Assembly: GCA_951406725.2 (NCBI GenBank)
Contig: OX597827.1
Coordinates: 70,618,001-70,682,000 of the forward strand
Direction: 5' to 3'
DNA length: 64,000 nucleotides
Source of the DNA: Octopus vulgaris
Lineage: Eukaryota
A program made the translations under genes and the position numbers. The number at the start of each line of letters is the position of its first letter. Positions within the stretch are counted from its first letter, which is position 1. Below the pieces are notes generated by a model, which was given only the letters and a program-made list of their open reading frames with translations, ran no database searches and was not told the DNA's origin. Of the stretch, positions 25,627 through 61,042 are shown piece after piece.

Positions 25627-26195
25627 ATATATGTTTATGTGCATCTATATATGTATATATATATATATATGTACATACATACATACATATATACTTATAT
25701 GTGTGTGTGTGTTTATATGTATTTACATGTGTGTATATATATGTATACATGAGTATGTATATATATATGAATATATGCATATGTGCATTTATATATGCAT
25801 ATATATGTACATACATATATACTTATATATGTGTGTGTGTTTATAATGTTCAAATACAGATATGTATATACACTCATGTACACATATACCTATATGTATA
25901 TATATATGTAAATATACCTGTATTTGTGTGTGTGTGTGTGTGTAGGCATGTTGATAGTTATGTATACCTGTTTGTATGTGATATTTAATTGTGGGAGAGC
26001 TACATAAGTTACTCAAAGGGTTACAGTTTTGTGTCAGTGCACTGAACAAACACAAGTTTAACAAGTACACTGGCACAAAATTGCAGACTCTAGGGTTACT
26101 TATGAAGTGTTATAACTAATAAATAATACATACATACATATATATATGTGCACATGTGCATGAGAGAGCATGTATGTGTACATCTGACCATGTGT

Positions 26196-26273
<78 letters not shown>

Positions 26274-26350
26274 TGCACATGTACATGAGAGTGTGTGTGT
26301 GTGTCTATGTACATCTGAGCATGTGTTATATATATGTATATATATATATG
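24760..26350. repeat. (GA)n and (TA)/(TG) low-complexity region
   Basis: Direct inspection. Confidence 0.85.
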
Positions 26351-26354
26351 CTAG

Positions 26355-26736
26355 CATCGCCTGGCCTCCGCTATAGCCACAAGGATGATGAAAAAAAGCT
26401 CTTCCTTCCCGTCTGAAGGAAGGAGGCATGACAATATTGACGATAGACTCGGCTGATAAACCGACTCGTCCCACACATGACAGCAGTTGTTCGACATAAG
26501 CCCACAGGTCGGAAATTGTTGGACATTGCACGAGTGTGTGCAGAACGGTTTCGTCTCTCTGACCGCATCTTGGACAGGTCAGCCCCGTGTTTCTCGAGCC
26601 GTGTCTGTAGAGCTTATCCCGAACGGGTAGCGCTTCTCGGTAGCACTGCCAGGCCAAGGATCTCTGAAAGTTGACCATTGGCCAAAAGTCTTCCTGAACA
26701 GGTGGGTCAGGTATTCCTCGTCGACGTCCAGGTTCG

Positions 26737-26737
<1 letters not shown>
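26355..26737 (-). mobile_element. L1/Tx1-like ORF2 C-terminal fragment
   Basis: [58 protein letters not shown] (CCHC); paralogous to 31800-32170. Confidence 0.85.
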
Positions 26738-26771
<34 letters not shown>

Positions 26772-27247
26772 AGAGAGTTTGTGAGTGAGAAAGAAGGAGA
26801 GTGAAGTTTTAGAGACACAAAACTAAAACGAAAACAAGAGGCGCAGTTCGAGATAAGTGAATGAACATAGGCAGAAAAGCGTAGATTACAGACAGACAAA
26901 GTCAGAGACAGAGATAGAAACAGACTGAGAGAGCGAGAGAAGGAGACAGACAGATTGATAAAAACGAAGGGAAAATCGCTGTCACAAGAGCGATAGAAAA
27001 GTGGGACTGAAAGTAGGAAAGTGAAAGAAAGAGTATGAGGGAGAGAGAAAGAGAGAGAGAGAGACGGGAAGAAAAGCTAGATATGAAAGAAGGATGTGTG
27101 AGAGTGAAAGAGAACTGCGGAAGAGTAAGCCCAGATAAAATAGTGTGTGAGAGAGGGGATGTAAGAGATAAAAGATGATAGGAACCACACTGGTTAGGAA
27201 GATTCAAATAGAGAGATAAATAGTGTCAGCTGAATCGTAGTTTAACC

Positions 27248-29950: not shown

Positions 29951-32210
29951 TAAAAGGGCAATTAGAGTAGAGTCGATTAGGTTTAACAAGGCATTAGCAG
30001 TAGAGAGAAATAGAATAGAGGAAGATTTAGTTAGGAAGTTAGATTGGCCATCGACTAATTTTTCGACGTCAAACACGATGGCTGCGTTCAAGGCACGTTC
30101 ACTGAGTGGGGAGGGAACGAACGTGTCACGATAGTCCCGTGTGGCGGAGGCGAAAAGTGGCAATAAAGCCACCATTCGGTCTTTGGTGGACCAGAGCGGA
30201 TGCGTGGTGTTTGAGCCGAAACAGATGTGTGTGGCTTTTCCACGGCACTTTGCTCGACTGTTCGGGACGAATGGTAGGACGGATAAAAAGGCAGACTTCG
30301 ATGTCCACCTGGACGGCCTGCCACGACTCTCGATGAGCGAAACGGAGTGCTGCGAAAGGCTGATAACAGCTGCGGAGATACAGGAAGTGATGAAGAGTTG
30401 CACGAGTTTGGATGGTCTGCCCTACGAGTTTTATACTTCGATGCCAGACTTGTTTGCGGGCCTCTTAGTAACCGTCTACTGCAACTGACAGCAAAATAGG
30501 AGAATTCCCACTTTTGTCTGTCGTGGGGTAGTGGCATTGCTGAGAAAGGACCCAAACAAGGGGGACATTATAAATAATTTCTGGCCATCACTCTGCTCCA
30601 TGCAGAGTTGAAGATTTTGGCCAAGGTGTTAGCCAAGAGGTTGGTGCTTGTGGACAAACTGGTTGGCGAGGCACAAACGTGCGCCTTCTCAACCAGGAGT
30701 GTTCACGATAACCTACATCTTCTGCGCTACATCATTAGAGAGGGTGGGTAACAAAGCTGGCATGGGTGGGGCTCTGATCAATCTAAAGCTTTGGGCGGCT
30801 GTCCTCAGGGCAGCCGGTTTCGGTTCAGTTTCCGTAGTTGGATCACTGCTTCGTACAGCAGCATCTACTCGGTTGTTCGGGTGAATGGTCACCTCGCGGA
30901 GCCATTCAGCATCTTGCGTTCTGTTCATCAAGTGTGCCCTCTCTCCTCCCCATCTCTATGCAGTGACTCTTGAACCATTACTGCGGAAGCTGGAAGCTTT
31001 GAGGAGTGTACCACATGATCTAGGATGTAGGAGAGGGGTGTCTGCTTACGCTGATGATGTCGCCGTCATAGTGTCGAACCACAGGCATATAGACCTGATT
31101 GGCGAAACACTACAAGAATATGAAGCGGTGACAGGAGCTAAAATTAACACGGAAATGTCAGTGGGCTTGCAATTCGGCACCTGGAGAGGCAAGCTCATGC
31201 CGTCCAACAGCGTGGTGGGGCACTGGACAGACGGTCCCATTAAGTTGCTCGGAGTTTGGTTTAGTCCGGTGTCCCAGATGTAGATGAACTGGGACGAGGT
31301 GACGAGCAGGGTAGCCAATCTCACCCAGAAATGGGCCGAGAGAAAGCTGTCTCTGAAAGGTCGAGTGGAGACGGCGAATGCGTACATCGCATCCATTATC
31401 TATTACCGCTTGACTGTCGTCCCTTGCCCTGTTTGCTAGTTAACCAAGCTGGTACTCTTACTCTTCCGATTTCTGAGGAAGGGGCACGTTCCACTGGTCA
31501 GGCGCTCCATCTACTATCAACAGTCGCTGAATGAAAGGCTGGGTAGGTTGCAGCATCTCCAGAGTTTCCTTAGCGGTGATCAGATGTGGTCCCCATTTGT
31601 AAGACACACTTTTCCACAGCTCGTCTCTTTGACTGAGTTGTAATCCTGGATTAGGCGTAGAGCGAGGAGAGCCGCTTGGCATCTTGAGTACCGTCAAGTG
31701 CTCACAGCCCACCGCCAGGCGGGCAACGGTCGTTGGTAATTCTAATCTAGCGTTCTTTAGTGGGCTTGTGGATGGAAAGTCCAACGACATCCTCAGGGAA
31801 AATCTGGATGTCGATGAAGATCAACTAACCGGTCTGTTTCGGAGAACATTCGGGCCTGGGGCTATGGATAACTTCCAGAAATCCCTTGCCCAGTAGTGTT
31901 ACCGAGGGGCGCTGCCTGTTCGAGATAAATTTTACAGGCACAGAAGTTCTGTCAGCCTGGCCTGCCCGAGGTGCGCTCAGAACGATGAAACCGTTCTACA
32001 CTCCCTAGTCTAGTGCCCGGGTATTGCTGGCCTGTGGGTTTATGTCAAATTCCTGCTGTCACGTGTAGGACGGATCCGGCTATCAGCTGAATACGTTGTT
32101 AAGATTGCCCCCCCCCGCCCTCTTTTGGCCGGGTGGGTAAGGCAATTTTTATTTGTCTAGTGGCTGTAGCGAAAGAGGTTGTATGGTGGACCCGTTTGAA
32201 AGGGCAAAAG
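29951..32210 (+). pseudogene. L1/Tx1-like LINE ORF2 (reverse transcriptase) pseudogene, truncated at both ends
   Basis: SLDGLPYEFY, VALLRKDPNKG, KILAKVLAKRL, RSVHQVCPLS, LYAVTLEPLLRKL, YADD, LSLKGRVETANAYIAS, CPRCAQNDETVLH; many stops and frameshifts. Confidence 0.92.
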
Positions 32211-33270: not shown

Positions 33271-36200
33271 ACTGTCGGCACTCCTTTGATCTCTGTCGGC
33301 AAACACTTTGATCTCTGTCGGCATTCCTCATTGATCTCTGTCGGCAACCTCTTTGATATCTGTCGGCACTCCTCATTGATCTCTGTCGGCACTCCTCTTT
33401 GATCTCTGCCGACAACCTTCTGTACTCATCTTTGATCTCTGTCGGCACCCTCTTTGATCTCTGTCGGCACACTCTTTGATATCTGTCGACACTCCTCTTT
33501 GACCTCTGACGGCACTCCTCTTTGATCTCTGTCGACACTCCTCTTTGATCTCTGTAGACACTCCTCTTTCATCTCTGTCGGCACCCTCTTCGATATCTCT
33601 CGGCACTCTTCTTTGATATCTGTCAGAAGTCCTCTTTGATCTCTGTCGACACTACTCTTTGATCTCTGTCGGCACCCTCTTTGATCTCTGTCGGCACCAT
33701 CTTTGATGTCTGTCGGCACTCTGTTTGATCTATGTCGACACCCTCTTTGATCTCTGTCGACACCCTCTTTGATCTCTGTCGGCACTCCTCTTTGATCTCT
33801 GTCGGCACCCTCTTTGATCTCTGTCGGCACCCTATTTGATCTCTGTCGGCAGCCTCTTTGATCTCTGTCGGCACTCCACTTTGACCTCTATCGGTACTCC
33901 TCTTTGATCTCTGGCGGCACTCCTCTTTAATCTCTGTCGGCACTCCTCTTTAATCTCTGTCGACACCCCCTTTAATCTCTGTCGACACCCCCTTTGATCT
34001 CTGTCGGCACCCTCTATGATCTCTGTCGGTACCCTCTTTGATCTCTGTCGGCACCCTCTTTGATCTCTGTCGGCACCCTCTTTGATCTCTGTCGGCACAC
34101 TTTGATCTCTGTCGGCACACTTCCTTGATCTCTGTCGGCACACTTCTTTGATCTCTGTCGGCACCCTCTTTGATCTCTGTCGGCACCCTCTTTGATCTCT
34201 GTCGACACCCTCTTTGATCTCTGTCGGTACCCTCTTTGATCTCTGTTGGCACCCTCTTTGATCTCTGTCGGCACACTTCTTTGATCTTTGTCGGCACCCT
34301 CTTTGATCTCTGTCGACACCCTCTTTGATCTCTGTCGGCACTCCTCTTTGATCTCTATCGGCACTCCTCTTTGATTTCTGTCGGCACCCTCTTTGATCTC
34401 TGTCGGCACTCCTCTTTGATCTCTGTCGGCACCCTATTTGATCTCTATCGGCAGCCTCTTTCATCTCTGTCGACACCCCCTTTAATCTCTGTCGACACCC
34501 CCTTTGATCTCTGTCGGCACCCTCTATGATCTCTGTCGGTACCCTCTTTGATCTCTGTCGACACCCTCTTTGATCTCTGTCGGCACACTTCTTTGATCTC
34601 TGTCGGCACCCTATTTGATCTCTATCGGCAGCCTCTTTCATCTCTGTCGACACCCCCTTTAATCTCTGTCGACACCCCCTTTAATCTCTGTCGGCACCCT
34701 CTATGATCTCTGTCGGTACCCTCTTTGATCTCTGTCGGCACCCTCTTTGATCTCTGTCGGCACACTTCTTTGATCTCTGTCGGCACACTTCTTTGATCTC
34801 TGTCGGCACACTTCTTTGATCTCTGTCGGCACCCTCTTTGATCTCTGTCGACACACTCTTTGATCTCTGTCGGCACTCCTCTTAGATCTCTGTCGGCACT
34901 CCTCTTTGATTTCTGTCGACACCCTCTTTGATCTCTGTCGGTACCCTCTTTGATCTCTGTCGGCACTCTTCTTTGATCTCTGTCGGCACCCTCGTTGATC
35001 TCTGTCGGCACCCTCGTTGATCTCTGTCGACACCCTCTTTGATCTCTGTCGGTACCCTCTTTGATCTGTCAGCACCCTCTTTGATCTCTGTCGGCACTCT
35101 TCTTTGATCTTTGTCGGTACTCTTCTTTGATCTCTGTCGGCACCCTATTTGATCTCTGTCGGCAGCCTCTTTGATCTCTGTCGGCACACCTCTTTGATCT
35201 CTGGCGGCACTCCTCTTTGATCTCTGTCGACACCCTCTTTGATCTCTGTCGGCACTCCTCTTTCATCTCTGTCGACACCCCCTTTGATCTCTGTCGGCAC
35301 CCTCTATGATCTCTGTCGGTACCCTCTTTGATATCTGTCGGCACTCTCTTTGATCTCTGTCGGCACACTTGTTTGATCTCTGTCGGCACCCTCTTTGATC
35401 TCTGTCGACACCCTCTTTGATCTCTGTCGGCACTCTTCTTTGATCTCTGTCGGCACCCTCTTTGATCTCTGTCGACACTCTTCTTTGATCTTTGTCGGTA
35501 CTCTTCTTTGATCTCTGTCGACACCCTCTTTGATCTCTGTCGGCACCCTCTTTTATCTCTGTCGGCACTCCTCTTTCATCTCTGTCGACACCCCCTTTGA
35601 TCTCTGTCGGCACCCTCTATGATCTCTGTCGGTACCCTCTTTGATCTCTGTCGGCACTCTCTTTGATCTCTGTCGGCACACTTCTTTGATCTATGTCGGC
35701 ACCCTCTTTGATCTCTGTCGACACCCTCTTTGATCTCTGTCGGCACTCTTCTTTGATCTATGTCGGCACCCTCTTTGATCTCTGGCGGCACTCCTCTTTG
35801 ATCTTTGTCGGTACTCTTCTTTGATCTCTGTCGGCACACTTCTTTGATCTCTGTCGGCACCCTCTTTGATCTCTGTCGACACCTTCTTTGATCTCTGTCG
35901 ACACCCTCTTTGATCTCTGTCGGCACTCTTCTTTGATCTCTGTCGGCACCCTCTTTGATCTCTGTCGACACTCCTCTTTGATCTCTGTCGGCACTCCTCT
36001 TTGATCTCTGTCGGCACCCTGTTTGATCTATGTCGACACCCTATTTGATCTCTGTCGACACCCTCTTTGATCTCTGTCGGCACCCTATTTGATCTATGTC
36101 GACACCCTATTTGATCTCAGTAGACACCCTCTTTGATCTCTGTCGGCACTCCTCTTTGATATATGTCGGCACTCTGTTTGATCTATGTCGACACCCTCTT

Positions 36201-37636
36201 TGATCTCTGTCGGCACCCTCTATGATCTCTGGCGGTACCCTCTTTCATCTCTGTCGACACCCCCTTTAATCTCTGTCGGCACCCTCTATGATCTCTGGCG
36301 GTACCCTCTTTGATCTCTGTCGGCACCTCTTTGATCTCTGTCGGCACACTTTGATCTCTGTCGGCACCCTCTTTGATCTCTGTCGGCACTCCTCTTTGAT
36401 CTCTGTCGACACCCTCTTTGATCTATGTCGACACCCTCTTTGATCTATGTCGGCACTCCTCTTTGATCTCTGTCGACACCCTCTTTGATCTCTGTCGGCA
36501 CCCTCTTTGATCTCTGTCGGTACCCTGTTTGATCTCTGTCGGCACTCCTCTTTGATCTATGTCGGTACCATCTTTGATCCCTGTCTGCACCATCTTTGAT
36601 GTCTGTCGGCACTCTGTTTGATCTATGTCGACACCCTCTTTGATCTCTGTCAACACCCTCTTTGATCTCTGTCGGCAGCCTCTTTGATCTCTGTCGGCAC
36701 TCCACTTTGACCTCTATCGGTACTCCTCTTTGATCTCTGTCGGCACACCTCTTTGATCTCTGGCGGCACTCCTCTTTGATCTCTGTCGACACCCTCTTTG
36801 ATCTATGTCGGCACTCATCTTTCATCTCTGTCAACACCCCCTTTAATCTCTGTCGACACCCCCTTTGATCTCTGTCGGCACCCTCTATGATCTCTGTCGG
36901 CACCCTCTTTGATCTCTGTTTGCACCCTCTTTGATCTCTGTCGGCGCCCTCTTTGATCTCTGTCGGCACACTTCTTTGATCTCTGTCGGCACCCTCTTTG
37001 ATCTCTGTCGGCACTCCTCTTTGATCTCTGTCGGCACTCCTCTTTGATCTCTGTCGACACCCTCTTTGATCTCTGTCGGTACCCTCTTTGATCTCTGTCG
37101 GCACCCTCTTTGATCTCTGTCGGCACCCTCTTTGATCTATGTCGGCACCCTTCTTTGATCTCTGTCGGCACCCTCTTTGATCTCTGTCGACACTCCTCTT
37201 TGATTTGTGTCGGTACTCTTCTTTGATATCTGCCGGTACCTTCTTTGATCTCTGTCGGCACCCTCTTTGATCTCTGTCGGCACTCCTCTTTGATATCTGT
37301 CGGCACTCCTCTTTGATCTCTGTCGGCACCCTGTTTGATCTATGTCGACACTCTATTTGATCTCTGTCGACAGACTCTTTGATCTCTGTCGGCACACCTC
37401 TTTGATCTCTGTCGGTACTCCTCTTTGATCTCTGTCGGCACCCTGTTTGATCTATGTCGACACCCTATTTGATCTCTGTCGGCACTCCTCTTTGATCTCT
37501 GCCGATACTCCTCTTTGATCTCTGTCGGCACTCCTCTTTGATATATGTCGGCACTCTGTTTGATCTATGTCGACACCCTCTTTGATCTCTGTCGACACCC
37601 TCTTTGATCTCTGTCGGTACTCCTCTTTGATCTCTA
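33271..37636. repeat. 4.4 kb minisatellite, 21-22 bp unit CTCTTTGATCTCTGTCGGCAC(C/TC)
   Basis: About 200 contiguous units with recurrent variants (GTCGAC, GGTACC, CTATGT, TTTAATC). Confidence 0.98.
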
Positions 37637-49398: not shown

Positions 49399-49880
49399 TA
49401 AAGGCAATGCTCCAGCATGGCCACAGTCAAATGACTGAAACAAACAAGTAAAAGAATATATATATATATAGGCGCAGGAGTGGCTGTGTGGTAAGTAGCT
49501 TGTTTACCAACCACATGGTTTCGGGTTCAGTCCCACTGCGTGACATCTTCGGCAAGTGTCTTCTGCTATAGCCTCGGGCCGACCAATGCCTTGTGAGTGG
49601 ATTTGGTAGACAGAAACTGGAAGAAGCCTGTCGTATAGATATATATATATATATGTGTGTGTGTATATATGTTTGTGTGCCTGTGTTTGTCCCCCCTAGC
49701 ATTGCTTGACAACCGATGCTGGTGTGTTTATGTCCCCGTCACTTAGCGGTTCGGCAAAAGAGACCGATAGAATAAGTACTGGGCTTACAAATGAATAAGT
49801 CCCGGGATCGAGTTGCTCAATTAAAGGCGGTGCTCCAGCATGGCCGCAGTCAAATGACTGAAACAAACAAGTTAAAGAAT
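49399..49880 (+). mobile_element. SINE family A (49469-49880) preceded by a bare copy of its tail (49399-49460)
   Basis: Both tails carry the variant GAAACAAACAAGT. Confidence 0.88.
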
Positions 49881-52464: not shown

Positions 52465-53377
52465 ACATCCAGTTGAATTTGTTGATAAGCTCCTTGAGGC
52501 ATTACTTGAAGAAAATCCTGCATTATCAGTTGAATAATTGGCAATAAAGCTTAGTTCAAACCATACAGTTCATTGTCATCTTCAACAGCTTGGAAAGGTT
52601 CCTAAACTTGGAAAATGGGTGCCTCATGAATTGTCCGAAAGCAACCGCAAATCCCAAGTTGACATCTGCTCTTCTCTCCTTTCTCGCGAACTCATTTCAC
52701 CCTTTTTGGATAGACTTGTGACTGGTGACAAAAAATGGATCTTTTATCAAAATGTTAAACATTGTAAACAGTGGCTTGGTAAAAAGGAAAAAGCTCAACC
52801 ACAACCAAGAAGGGAACTACATGGGGAAAAAGGTTCTTCTCTCTATCTGGTGCAATTGCAAAGGAGTAATTCACTTTGAATTGTTACCACCTAATGCAAC
52901 AATCAATGCTCAAGTCAACTGTCAGCAATTAGAACATTTGAACCAAGCTTTGAAGGAAAAAAGACCCACTTTAGTGAATCAAAAAGGAGTGATGTTTCAC
53001 CAGGACAATGCACAACCCTACACTGCAAAGATCACAACACAGAAGATCGAAGAGCTTGGTTGGGAAAAAATTCCTCATCCACCTTATTCTCCCGACCTTG
53101 CTCTTTCAGACTACCATTTATTTCGTAGTTTACAGAATCATTTGGGGGACATAACTTTCACAAGCCAGGAGGAGGTTGAAACTGACATTTCAGAGTTCTT
53201 CGCTTTGTAACCAAAAGAGTTTTACATTGATGGGATTAAAAAGCTTGTAAATAGATAGAAGGAAGTCATAGATAATCAGGGAAAGTACATTGATGATTAA
53301 ATTTCAATTGAATATAACATTTGATCACTTGTTTTCTTTATTCAAAATTCAGACAGAACTTATAGGATGACCTGATA
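52461..53377 (+). pseudogene. Mariner (DD34D) transposase pseudogene with 3' TIR; 5' end missing
   Basis: WVPHEL, LVTGDKKW, HQDNAQP, HPPYSPDLALSDYHLF; frameshift near 52825 and in-frame stops; TIR CAGAACTTATAGGATGACCTGA+TA. Confidence 0.95.
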
Positions 53378-58914: not shown

Positions 58915-59598
58915 GAGAGGTATCATCATAATGGACAGTTGTGACCATAAACAGGTGTAAGGCTATCTTCAATATTGACCTACCTGAGACAACGGATGAA
59001 AACCTCTCATCACCGTAGCCATTCATGTGACCATCAACAGGTGTAAATCTATCATCGCTGTAGACATTGATATGATAATCAACAGGTGTAAATCTATCAT
59101 CATTCTAGTATTAGGTGTTAATCTGTATTGCTGTAGACATTGATGTGGCAATCAACAGGTGTAAATTTTACCTGTAGCAATCAACCTATCATCAACCATG
59201 TAGACATACCTATGACCATCAGCAGGTGTAAATCTATCATCATTGTAGAGATATGTGTAACCATAAACAGGTGTAAATTTGTGATCATTGAAGACATACC
59301 TGTGGCCATCAACAGGTGTTAATCTATCATCATTCAAGACATAGCTTTGACCAGCAACATGTGAAAATCTAGCATCACTGTAGACTTACCTGTGACAATC
59401 AACAGGTGAAAAATCAACAGTGCAGATATACCTGTGACTAGCAGCAGGTGTACATTTAGCATCATGGCAGACATTGAAGTGACCATCAACAGGTATAAAT
59501 CTATTATTGCCATAGACATTAACAGGTGTTAACCTATAATCGTAGTATAAAACTGTTGCGATTATCAACAGGTGTAAAATTTGTCATCTTGGTAGACA
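58915..59598. repeat. Diverged 45-bp minisatellite, resuming at 60815-61030
   Basis: Unit GTAGACATTGATGTGACCATCAACAGGTGTAAATCTATCATCACT; CAACAGGTGTAAATCTATCATC at 59035 and 59080. Confidence 0.9.
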
Positions 59599-59740
59599 TA
59601 GGCACAGGTGTGGTTGGGTAGTAAGAAGCTTGCTTCCCAACCACATGGTTCTGGGTTCAATCCCACTGCGTGGCACCTTGGGCAAGTGTCTTCTACAATA
59701 GCCTCAGGCCGACCAATGCCTTGTGAGTGGATTTAGTAGA
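59599..59740 (+). mobile_element. SINE family A 5' half
   Basis: TAGGCACAGG head to GTGAGTGGATTTAGTAGA. Confidence 0.85.
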
Positions 59741-59879
59741 TTTAGTATTCCACTATCTCTTTCACTTTCATATATTAACAGTTTAGATCTTAATTATAAA
59801 AAAGTATGAAACCATTATTCTATGCTAATTTAGTTAATTGTAAGGTAGAAATTTAAATGTAATAAAATGTTTTAAAAGA

Positions 59880-60095
59880 AATTTAATGTGCCTACGTGAT
59901 AACTGTAAACCTACTTTTGGGCCACTCTGCATCGCTAGCCACTACACATACTTTATTTTCTCTCCTTGTGTCTTTCTGTGGAAGAGCATAGGCTCGAAAC
60001 ATCAAAGACTTTTTCACTTCCCGAGCATTAAACTAATACATCTGTTTGTTGTCTACCCCACCTGTCTTCGTCTTGTTTTTTTGTGAATTCTCCCT
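59880..60095 (+). repeat. pLTR-type repeat with a minimal hammerhead-like motif (59970-60009)
   Basis: GTCTTT-CTGTGGA-A-GAGC-ATAG-GCTC-GAAACATC-AAAGAC. Confidence 0.6.
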
Positions 60096-60111
60096 ATATA
60101 TATATAATATA

Positions 60112-60550
60112 TGTCTGATTGTTGACTTGACCAGCTCCAACTGCAGTCACCAGGTGAAACAGGAGCTGACCTCCACCTTCTCCGTTGTGTGCCATCAAGT
60201 TGACCTGTCCAAGAATCAATTGCAAGATGAAATCAATAAAATCCAGAAGGACATTGACCAGTTAAAGGACGTCACTTCCAAGTCAAAGACACTCAGAAAC
60301 AAAGCTGATTGGTTAGACAGTGAATTGAAGTCCTTCACCAACCAATACCTCCAGCATGAGGTTTGAACCAGGGTCCAGTTTAGTTTTACGTATGGATGCA
60401 GCTGCTTCTGTCCACTATGATAGACACAGTGACCGAGTGAAGCAGAACTCTGCTTGTTTGGCAACGAACCGAGCTGTCAGTTGGAAAAGAACTGTAAAAG
60501 CGGGGACAGTTTCATAAAGTCTAATCTGATTAAAAATATAAATAAATAAA
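60112..60550 (+). pseudogene. Mfn: Mitofusin (Mfn/Marf) C-terminal HR2 coding fragment plus 3' UTR; probable 5'-truncated processed pseudogene
   Basis: LIVDLTSSNCSHQVKQELTSTF..CHQVD..LRNKADWLDSELKSFTNQYLQ* (stop 60364-60366) matches the mitofusin terminus (NCSHQVQQEL, LRNKAGWLDSEL); begins abruptly in (TA)n with no acceptor site; ATTAAA/AATAAA at 60529-60550. Confidence 0.92.
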
Positions 60551-60602
60551 GGCGGTGCTCCAGCATGGCCGCAGTCAAATGACTGAAACAAGTAAAAGAG
60601 TA
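60547..60602 (+). mobile_element. Bare SINE family A 3' tail fused to the mitofusin UTR
   Basis: TAAAGGCGGTGCTCCAGCATGGCCGCAGTCAAATGACTGAAACAAGTAAAAGAGTA, matching the young copies in the window. Confidence 0.95.
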
Positions 60603-60744
60603 TACCCCCAATAGTTGTTATATTTTTTTGATAACATAATAGGTTAAATAGGATGATGTTTATATTACAATAACCAATAATATGATGTGCATGTCTAGTA
60701 ATATTATGATCATGAAATTAGCATTAGCTTATCTCACTCTTTCT

Positions 60745-60810
60745 CAGGGAACCCCTAAGAAACTTTTACGGAACCGTAGGGTTCCGAGGCTCCCTGGTTG
60801 AGACACGCTG
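60745..60810. mobile_element. hAT-type element right end
   Basis: GGAACCCCT..GGAACCGTAGGGTTCC..GGTTGAGACACGCTG; partner TIR not found. Confidence 0.55.
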
Positions 60811-61042
60811 CTCTAGACATTGATACAGCCATCAACAGGTATAAAACTATCATCACGATAGACATGCATGTAATTAGCAGCAGGTGTAAAATCTATCATC
60901 ACTGTAGACATTGATGTGAACATGAACAGGTGTAAATGTTTCATCATTGTAGACATACTAGTGGCTGGTAACAGGTACAAACTCATAATCACTGTATATG
61001 AATACTGCAGCCAGAACAGGTGCAATAAAACTGTTATATGTA

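What the first reader, a model, noticed from the sequence alone, without database searches (positions are those of the whole stretch)
60112..60602. Mitofusin mRNA 3' end fused to a bare SINE tail: a chimeric retrocopy with no poly(A)
Seen: 84 uninterrupted codons of the mitofusin HR2 terminus, a stop and ~180 nt of UTR ending in ATTAAA/AATAAA. In place of a poly(A) run come the last ~55 nt of SINE family A, joined through a shared TAAA. The 5' end starts abruptly in a (TA)n tract with no splice acceptor, and the usually conserved ARLC-type motif reads SVVC. Known: human MFN2 has introns within this segment (from memory, near HQVQQ/EL and LLR/NKA), and many non-mammalian LINEs need their cognate 3' tail rather than poly(A). 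Inference: reverse transcription was primed on a SINE tail and switched to the mRNA 3' end, or the RNAs were ligated, so the tail carried a cellular mRNA into the genome.
Basis: partly seen in the sequence, partly recalled or inferred. Interest (0 to 1): 0.78.

Follow-up and report, generated by a model that had tools for sequence, protein, structure and literature searches.

The report
mRNA copy riding a SINE tail
A dead, spliced copy of the end of the mitofusin gene sits directly in front of the 56-base tail of a jumping element, the same tail start that also follows many U6 RNA copies in this genome, likely because the element's reverse transcriptase jumped from the tail onto the cellular RNA and inserted both at once.

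Summary
Real. Window 60110-60532 is a processed copy of a mitofusin gene on another contig: both introns are gone, 9 differences in 423 bases. The 56-base SINE tail follows after a 14-base A-rich spacer and is not in the parent UTR. Corrections: the ATTAAA/AATAAA are not parental signals; RNA reads of a related species run past the junction (65 reads); the spacer is probably a short A tail, so 'no poly(A)' is doubtful. The tail start is a shared junction: of 92 unselected U6 3' ends, 24 carry a bare two-hairpin tail (four tail types), 38 a SINE from its 5' end, 3 an internal SINE A junction, none poly(A). A full RPLP1 retrocopy is fused to a whole SINE; an Elongin-B copy has no tail (counter-example). 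No second mRNA on a bare tail and no empty site were found. Best reading: one template-jump insertion (0.72). The kind is known (U6/L2, U6/Mon-1); the mRNA cargo and fixed junction were not found in my searches. The scan noted single SRRM1-L1 and 7SK-CR1 chimeras in other genomes.

The parts
60110..60161 (+). 3' part of parent exon A (5'-truncated cDNA start; first TA shared with the target tract)
   Evidence: 2 differences to G000:C26 exon ending at 38667400; donor GTGAG follows in the parent
60162..60296 (+). whole parent exon B, spliced on both sides
   Evidence: 135 of 135 aligned, 2 differences; introns of 1122 and 3712 bases absent
60297..60532 (+). parent last exon up to an internal point of the 3' UTR (stop 60364-60366)
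   Evidence: 4 substitutions and 1 indel; parent continues GTTGG; RNA reads of organism E continue too
60112..60363 (+). 84 open codons, mitofusin C-terminus, no start codon: pseudogene
60513..60518 (+). CATAAA, variant poly(A) hexamer 14 bases before the junction (possible minor site)
   Evidence: present in the parent; organism E has G at 60516; function inferred only
60533..60546 (+). 14-base A-rich spacer, not from the parent: likely short A tail plus untemplated bases
   Evidence: analogous 16-base spacer at the AATAAA site of the RPLP1 chimera
60547..60602 (+). bare SINE A tail: two hairpins (60551-60570, 60572-60585) plus terminal AAAGAGTA unit; homologous to the 3' end of CR1-type LINEs
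   Evidence: z -3.47; covariation; LINE ends
60108..60111 (+). TATA, candidate left target-site duplication of the whole chimera
   Evidence: a second TATA at 60537-60540 fits a tail-only insertion equally
60601..60604 (+). TATA, candidate right target-site duplication
60601..60817 (+). right half of a multi-copy MITE ('MITE B'; hAT-like by recall); left half absent from the window
   Evidence: 40 scored matches at 83-90%
59931..60107 (+). remnant of another repeat ending in (TA)n (Penelope-like by recall, untested)
   Evidence: two more copies in the window at 75-77%; loose ends
59746..59932 (.). left-truncated copy of a short MITE ('MITE A')
59601..59740 (+). SINE head, probably older than the tail
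   Evidence: 13 of 140 mismatches against median 5.5 (max 13) for 18 heads with an exact young tail

Best explanation
The unit 60110-60602 is a spliced mitofusin mRNA fragment joined to a bare SINE tail, and it was likely inserted in one event, in which a CR1-type LINE reverse transcriptase likely primed on the tail at a TA target, reached the tail's 5' end and likely jumped onto the short A-rich 3' end of the mRNA. Shown: splicing, parent, junction positions, same tail start in U6 and tRNA chimeras, two-hairpin structure, homology of the tail to CR1-type LINE ends. Inferred: single event; jump rather than ligation; that the tail existed as a discrete short RNA with a physical 5' end (for example a decay product protected by the bound enzyme); that the spacer is an oligo(A) on a minor poly(A) site or decay intermediate; that cDNA synthesis then stopped mid-exon and was joined through TA microhomology. 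The copy is a non-coding pseudogene fragment.
For: Both introns cleanly absent. Tail begins at the same point as 9 of 12 internal SINE A junctions among 92 unselected U6 ends (binomial 4e-13 under a uniform model); 15 more U6 copies carry bare tails of three other types starting at the homologous point; 12 of 12 hits of a U6-end-plus-tail pattern are U6, reversed control 0; in L065 an 11-base repeat encloses U6 fragment and tail. No U6 copy has poly(A). A tRNA with trailer is fused to the same tail start (L151). RPLP1 copy: 4 introns lost, ends 15 bases after AATAAA, 16-base A-rich spacer, then a whole SINE A in sense, the unit sitting inside the (TA)n of an older SINE whose two halves flank it. 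UBE2O-like copy fused in sense to an RTE 3' fragment. Tail age fits the cDNA: 0 of 54 differences to consensus, cDNA 2.1% from parent. Short repeats of 2-4 bases are the rule for bare tails (79 of 116 with a clean end). R2 reverse transcriptase jumps only at a template's 5' end and adds untemplated bases (PMC8594491, passages).
Against: No empty site was seen, and no contig was shown that bridges mitofusin to the tail in organisms C or D. TATA fits a tail-only insertion as well, and AAATATA in the spacer resembles the MITE B sequence just 5' of the break. The MITE's left half is missing, so deletions have hit this locus. The spacer (18 bases to the first stem) is longer than in 23 of 24 U6 cases (2-10). 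A tail-free processed copy exists (Elongin B), so a tail is not obligatory. No second mRNA on a bare tail in 133 loci or in 3 flanks searched. The CR1 family with this tail type is old (76-83% among copies); a young partner LINE was not found. U6 classes were assigned by eye with BLAST help.
Confidence: 0.72

Rival explanations
1. Two steps: a tail-free retrocopy with a short A tail inserted first; a 5'-truncated SINE later inserted at a TA inside that A-rich end.
For: TATA at 60537-60540 matches the right flank; bare tails insert alone in A/T-rich sites (176 exact copies; clear own repeats in L054, L058); a tail-free retrocopy exists.
Against: Leaves AATAAA before the tail unexplained; needs a rare event (bare-tail copies are a few hundred to thousands against about 12 SINE tails per 64 kb; my estimate) to hit a 14-base target in sense; processed copies are rare (3 found among 38 viewed of 109 family hits).
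Confidence: 0.1
2. Break repair: a full SINE sat in the MITE's (TA)n; a deletion removed its head and body and the MITE's left half, and a mitofusin cDNA patched the gap.
For: L009 shows a full SINE at this very MITE position; MITE left half missing; TA microhomology at the 5' join; a SINE head lies 800 bases upstream; the Elongin-B copy looks like such a patch.
Against: The deletion end would have to fall on the junction hot spot (about 9 of 390 positions) and in sense; the upstream head is more diverged than most young copies and is flanked by satellite, not MITE.
Confidence: 0.08
3. RNA ligation (RtcB type) joined an mRNA fragment to a cleaved tail RNA before retrotransposition; one insertion, but no template jump.
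For: Shown for human U6/L1 (PMC6789731, abstract); a fixed tail start suits a cleavage product with a 5'-OH.
Against: That route needs a 2',3'-cyclic phosphate and a 5'-OH. 38 of 92 U6 copies join a SINE at its 5' end, which for a polymerase III RNA should be a triphosphate (own knowledge); spacers of 1-10 variable bases and A-tailed mRNA ends fit untemplated addition better.
Confidence: 0.08

Closest known systems
U6-L2 and U6-Mon-1 chimeras of platypus; U6-L2, U6-RTEX, U6-AnolisSINE2 of anole (Doucet et al. 2015, PMC4476161, section 10 read)
   Same: Stringent LINE genome; cellular RNA fused in sense to a short LINE or SINE 3' part; short target duplications (1-9 bp); no U6-poly(A) copies; template switching proposed.
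   Different: Cargo here includes spliced mRNA; invertebrate-type genome; junctions fall at two fixed points (5' end of the SINE, foot of the hairpins). The section read says 'short L2 sequence' and reports no fixed start; one of its four supplements could not be searched.
U6/L1 and mRNA/L1 chimeras of mammals (PMC6789731 abstract; Law and Burns 2025, 10.1101/2025.02.02.635956, discussion part 1 read)
   Same: 5' cellular RNA, 3' retroelement, same orientation, one insertion.
   Different: L1 part is variably truncated; the 17 mRNA cases mostly carry first exons on near full-length L1 and are ascribed to trans-splicing; L1 needs no tail to move mRNA.
WEIRD-MGL and WEIRD-MgSINE chimeras of Magnaporthe grisea (PMC2104539, abstract and section 9 read)
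   Same: Switch sites recur, with no microhomology between templates.
   Different: 28 sites in 33 elements over 230-5461 bases with a GCC|A/U motif; here one site at the foot of the recognition hairpins, shared by four tail types.
Birth of CR1-tailed SINEs by template switching (TguSINE1/PittSINE; PMC5729268, passages read); stringent LINE/SINE pairs (PMC3747384, passages read)
   Same: CR1-derived tail with hairpin and terminal microsatellite; new heads gained by switching to a tRNA.
   Different: There the switch is inferred from finished families; here dozens of one-off products, and SINE A's own homology to the CR1-type LINE starts at the same point.

Membership tests
Processed pseudogene | introns precisely absent relative to a parent elsewhere | tested here: met
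   two GT..AG introns of G000:C26 absent
Processed pseudogene (L1 type) | poly(A) tail at the parent's poly(A) site | tested here: inconclusive
   65 RNA reads of organism E run past the junction, no A-tailed loose end; but E lacks the CATAAA, and a 14-base A-rich spacer is present
Processed pseudogene (L1 type) | long target-site duplication | tested here: not met
   only TATA
Template-switch chimeric retrocopy | cellular RNA 5' and retroelement 3' end in the same orientation, directly fused | tested here: met
   14-base spacer between
Template-switch chimeric retrocopy | one target duplication encloses both parts | tested here: inconclusive
   TATA fits both the whole unit and the tail alone
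Template-switch chimeric retrocopy | both parts arrive together in phylogeny | tested here: inconclusive
   retrocopy seen in organisms A, C, D, not E; tail junction not shown in C or D
Template-switch chimeric retrocopy | retroelement part absent from the parent transcript | tested here: met
   no tail-like match in 1500 bases downstream in the parent; reads continue as parent UTR
Stringent LINE/SINE tail (CR1 type) | SINE 3' end homologous to a LINE 3' end | tested here: met
   20 LINE ends carry the same motif and repeat unit; CR1 label rests on recalled protein motifs, Pfam gave no hit for L148
Stringent LINE/SINE tail (CR1 type) | conserved stem-loop plus terminal tandem repeat | tested here: met
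   z -3.47; 96.5% cells paired, 21 both-side changes, 0 of 500 shuffles, though pair-level counts were not above shuffles (297 of 500) and rows are related
Stringent LINE/SINE tail (CR1 type) | tail required for retrotransposition by the LINE protein | not testable with these tools
   needs a cell or in vitro assay
RtcB-ligated chimera | cyclic-phosphate donor and 5'-OH acceptor; chimeric RNA without genomic template | not testable with these tools
   indirect arguments against only
Octopus SINEs OR1/OR2/OK (Ohshima and Okada 1994, cited in PMC4758252) | sequence identity to the described consensus | not tested
   resemblance recalled; no repeat library on hand

The most novel reading that the evidence does not exclude
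CR1-type LINEs and their SINEs in this genome leave a discrete ~56-base two-hairpin tail RNA, cut back to the edge of the enzyme's footprint, that works as a universal retroposition adaptor: the enzyme copies it, runs off its 5' end and captures any free RNA 3' end (U6, pre-tRNA, other SINEs, A-tailed mRNA). The same step gave SINE A its tail, so SINE birth and mRNA retroposition in a stringent-LINE genome are one reaction, with dozens of dated one-off products.
Probability: 0.42. Interest if true: 0.82.

Novelty: new variant of a known kind. Interest (0 to 1): 0.64.

Why it matters
Stringent LINEs such as CR1 and L2 are thought to move few cellular mRNAs because those lack the recognised tail (PMC5470649 and PMC4476161, passages read). 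This locus, with the RPLP1 and UBE2O-like copies, shows a route around that block in a genome where retrocopies are rare. The two-point junction pattern gives a sharp, testable prediction on how SINEs acquire LINE tails: a short tail RNA with a fixed 5' end should exist in germ-line RNA. The mitofusin copy itself is a dead fragment with no evident function.

Tried and rejected
Real gene locus: rejected, parent on C26 has the introns. SINE already in the parent UTR: rejected. Junction at the main poly(A) site: rejected for organism E. Spacer taken from a LINE 3' UTR: an old CR1-type family ends in a similar A-rich run before the same motif, but the window's second hairpin loop and terminal unit are SINE A type and those LINE copies are 76-83% alike; chance likeness preferred, not excluded. 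More mRNA captures on bare tails: 212 sense reading frames from 133 loci gave one real hit, an FtsJ exon followed by a GT intron whose tail has its own duplication, and two sub-threshold hits; this misses captures that hold only UTR. Three A-rich flanks had no unique parent. A first 'non-consensus upstream' pattern was swamped by ordinary SINE variants (1775 matches). Empty site in organism E: no contig on the right flank, which proves nothing. tRNA calls for L135 and L143 rest on recall; ARAGORN and Rfam did not confirm them. Self-cleaving ribozyme in the tail: considered from recall; Rfam at gathering scores found nothing there. Paper searches showed no report of mRNA fused to a bare SINE tail or of such chimeras in cephalopods; subscription journals are largely missing from that library.

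Full report
Observation. The window lies at G000:C14:70618001-70682000 in a 2.8-Gb genome; the repeat families look like those of an octopus, which is recalled and untested. Positions 60112-60363 are 84 open codons ending in TGA that match Fzo_mitofusin at E 3e-26. DNA and protein searches found one other locus, on C26, in three pieces. Exon by exon, 60110-60161, 60162-60296 and 60297-60532 match the parent with 8 substitutions and 1 indel in 423 bases (2.1%), and the two GT..AG introns (1122 and 3712 bases) are absent exactly. It is a processed copy that starts mid-exon, with TA shared with the upstream (TA)n tract.

The 3' end. Parent-derived sequence stops at 60532; the parent goes on GTTGG and has no tail-like match in the next 1500 bases. 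In raw RNA reads of a related species (organism E), 31 and 34 reads continue as parent UTR at a depth of about 34 and 36, and no A-tailed loose end is listed. So this is not the main poly(A) site there. However, the window's own parent has CATAAA 20 bases before the junction and a GU-rich run after it, and E has G in that hexamer, so a minor site in this lineage is not excluded. The tail (60547-60602) equals the majority sequence of 59 full-context copies over 54 bases, folds into two hairpins starting 4 bases in (z -3.47), and the structure holds across tail types with compensatory changes in the second stem (96.5% paired, 21 both-side cells, 0 of 500 shuffles; number of covarying pairs not above shuffles; rows related). 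CR1-type LINE ends (label from recalled motifs) carry the same motif and repeat unit, and their likeness to SINE A begins at the same TAA(A)GG.

Surroundings. Left: a SINE head, a left-truncated MITE, a truncated repeat ending in (TA)n. Right: the right half of another MITE whose left half is not in the window. In 2 of 8 paralogous MITE copies shown, (TA)n abuts the same right half, one of them with a full SINE inserted there. The only repeat flanking the unit is TATA, which fits the whole chimera and a tail-only insertion equally. Short repeats are normal here: 79 of 116 bare tails with a clean end show 2-4 bases (crude, inflated by A/T richness).

Distribution. Contigs that cross the first exon junction exist in runs of organisms A and C; copy-type and parent-type alleles of 60404-60515 exist in C and D; in E the parent exons lie in unbroken intron-bearing contigs, so the copy was not seen there. 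No listed contig bridges mitofusin to the tail in C or D, and no empty site was seen. The decisive phylogenetic test is therefore open.

The class. A pattern for A/T-preceded bare tails gave 176 matches, control 0. One of the first 30 was a full U6 fused to the tail. A U6-end-plus-tail pattern gave 12 matches, control 0, all U6 (9 near full length, 3 truncated); in L065 an 11-base repeat encloses both parts. To remove selection I read 92 of the first 93 listed of 283 U6 3' ends (the one skipped was L049, already known as a bare-tail case). Classes, assigned by eye with BLAST help (L243 moved): 28 SINE A from its 5' end, 10 other SINEs from their 5' end, 24 bare two-hairpin tails (9 SINE A type, 9 of the L148 LINE type, 5 of a third type, 1 other), 3 internal SINE A junctions, 7 other repeats, 20 genes, duplicates or unexplained; no poly(A). 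Nine of 12 internal SINE A junctions fall at the mitofusin junction (P 4e-13 if uniform), with 2-10 non-T spacer bases in 23 of 24 bare cases. Plain insertions show a weaker bias: 43 (TA)n-flanked copies start at the tail (my count of the rows) against 12 at the next TA 26 bases upstream over the same contigs, with equal exact-match rates (32 and 35 of 115). A tRNA with trailer is fused to the same start (L151).

Other mRNAs. Seven Pfam scans gave 109 hits; I viewed the 38 with long single matches, stops or top rank and found three processed pseudogenes. RPLP1 (L342): four introns lost, starts at the parent's pyrimidine-rich start, ends 15 bases after AATAAA, then a 16-base A-rich spacer and a whole SINE A in sense, all inside the (TA)n of an older SINE whose halves flank it. 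A UBE2O-like, partly spliced copy (L417; name recalled) joins an RTE-type 3' fragment in sense. Against my reading, an Elongin-B copy (L447; name recalled) has two introns lost, an inverted 5' duplication and no sense tail, only an antisense LINE piece. No second mRNA on a bare tail turned up in 212 reading frames from 133 loci or 3 flanks.

Mechanism. Junctions cluster at a SINE's natural 5' end and at the foot of the hairpins. R2 reverse transcriptase jumps only when it reaches a template's 5' end and adds untemplated bases (PMC8594491, passages). If the enzyme here behaves alike, the bare tail must be a discrete RNA, most simply a decay product trimmed to the protein-bound hairpins; a structure-induced pause, as proposed for Magnaporthe (PMC2104539, section 9), is the alternative. 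I put 0.72 on one insertion by a jump from the tail to an A-tailed mitofusin RNA, 0.10 on a later tail insertion, 0.08 on break repair at a full SINE, 0.08 on RNA ligation.

Known kin and novelty. U6 chimeras with L2, Mon-1, RTE and AnolisSINE2 are described, with short duplications and no poly(A) forms (PMC4476161, section 10; three supplements searched for platypus terms, one not searchable). mRNA/L1 chimeras are known in human (10.1101/2025.02.02.635956, outline and discussion part 1; bioRxiv supplements closed). CR1 is held to move few cellular RNAs (PMC5470649, passages; PMC3747384, passages). SINE birth by switching is proposed for passerines (PMC5729268, passages). PMC4758252 and PMC4494074 were seen as passages, PMC6789731 as abstract. 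Searches showed no mRNA on a bare SINE tail and no fixed junction shared by several tail families. The scan's notes hold two single chimeras in other genomes and nothing in this one. Verdict: real, a new variant of a known kind; interest 0.64.

Noticed in passing
L342:1321-2210 (G000:C8:54720234 onward): Full RPLP1 processed pseudogene + 16-base A-rich spacer + whole SINE A, nested in an older SINE's (TA)n; parent on C10.
   Followed up: yes
L417 (G000:C21:11094500-11100500, minus): Partly spliced UBE2O-like copy (90-96% to a C9 gene) joined in sense to an RTE-type 3' fragment ending in (GATA)n.
   Followed up: partly
L447 and L448 (G000:C11:60878092, 60921631): Elongin-B processed copy with inverted 5' duplication and antisense LINE piece, no sense tail; duplicated 43 kb away at 98%.
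   Followed up: partly
L104-L133, L204-L263, L062-L073: Most U6 copies in this genome are chimeras with SINE heads or bare tails of four types.
   Followed up: yes
L151:1414-1496; L135 and L143 near 1440-1500: tRNA with trailer fused to the bare tail (L151 confirmed; the other two tRNA-like by recall only).
   Followed up: partly
L124:1364-1568; L243:223-590: tRNA-Lys, U6 and a second U6 start in a row; U6 fused to a 5S-headed SINE that shares SINE A's body and end.
   Followed up: partly
L114-L120 (G000:C1:139422702-139429774): Tandem array of seven U6 genes about 1.1-1.4 kb apart.
   Followed up: no
L034, L141, L161, L046, L056, L160, L331, L332, L146, L166: 3' ends of three other SINE families directly followed by the bare SINE A tail; chimeras or stacked insertions.
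   Followed up: no
window 60314-60522, run X2: One contig at about twice single-copy depth carries parent alleles across this span, bounded by the differences at 60313 and 60523; may mean gene conversion of the copy by the parent in that individual (depth only, 80% of run read).
   Followed up: no
window 49399-49460: A second bare tail in the window with the same start.
   Followed up: partly
window 33429-37635: 22-base tandem repeat, about 188 copies, between long A-rich tracts.
   Followed up: no
window 26103-26822 (-), 30885-31280 (+), 52722-53207 (+): Fragments matching zf-RVT, RVT_1 (below cut-off) and a mariner-type transposase; no host gene found among 33 long frames.
   Followed up: partly
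window 59000-59600 and 60818-61020: Degenerate satellite-like repeat flanks the whole nest of insertions.
   Followed up: no
L356, L386, L347, L407: Intact single-exon matches (ubiquitin-conjugating enzyme, proteasome subunit, EF-Tu-like, LSM-like): possible old retrogenes.
   Followed up: no
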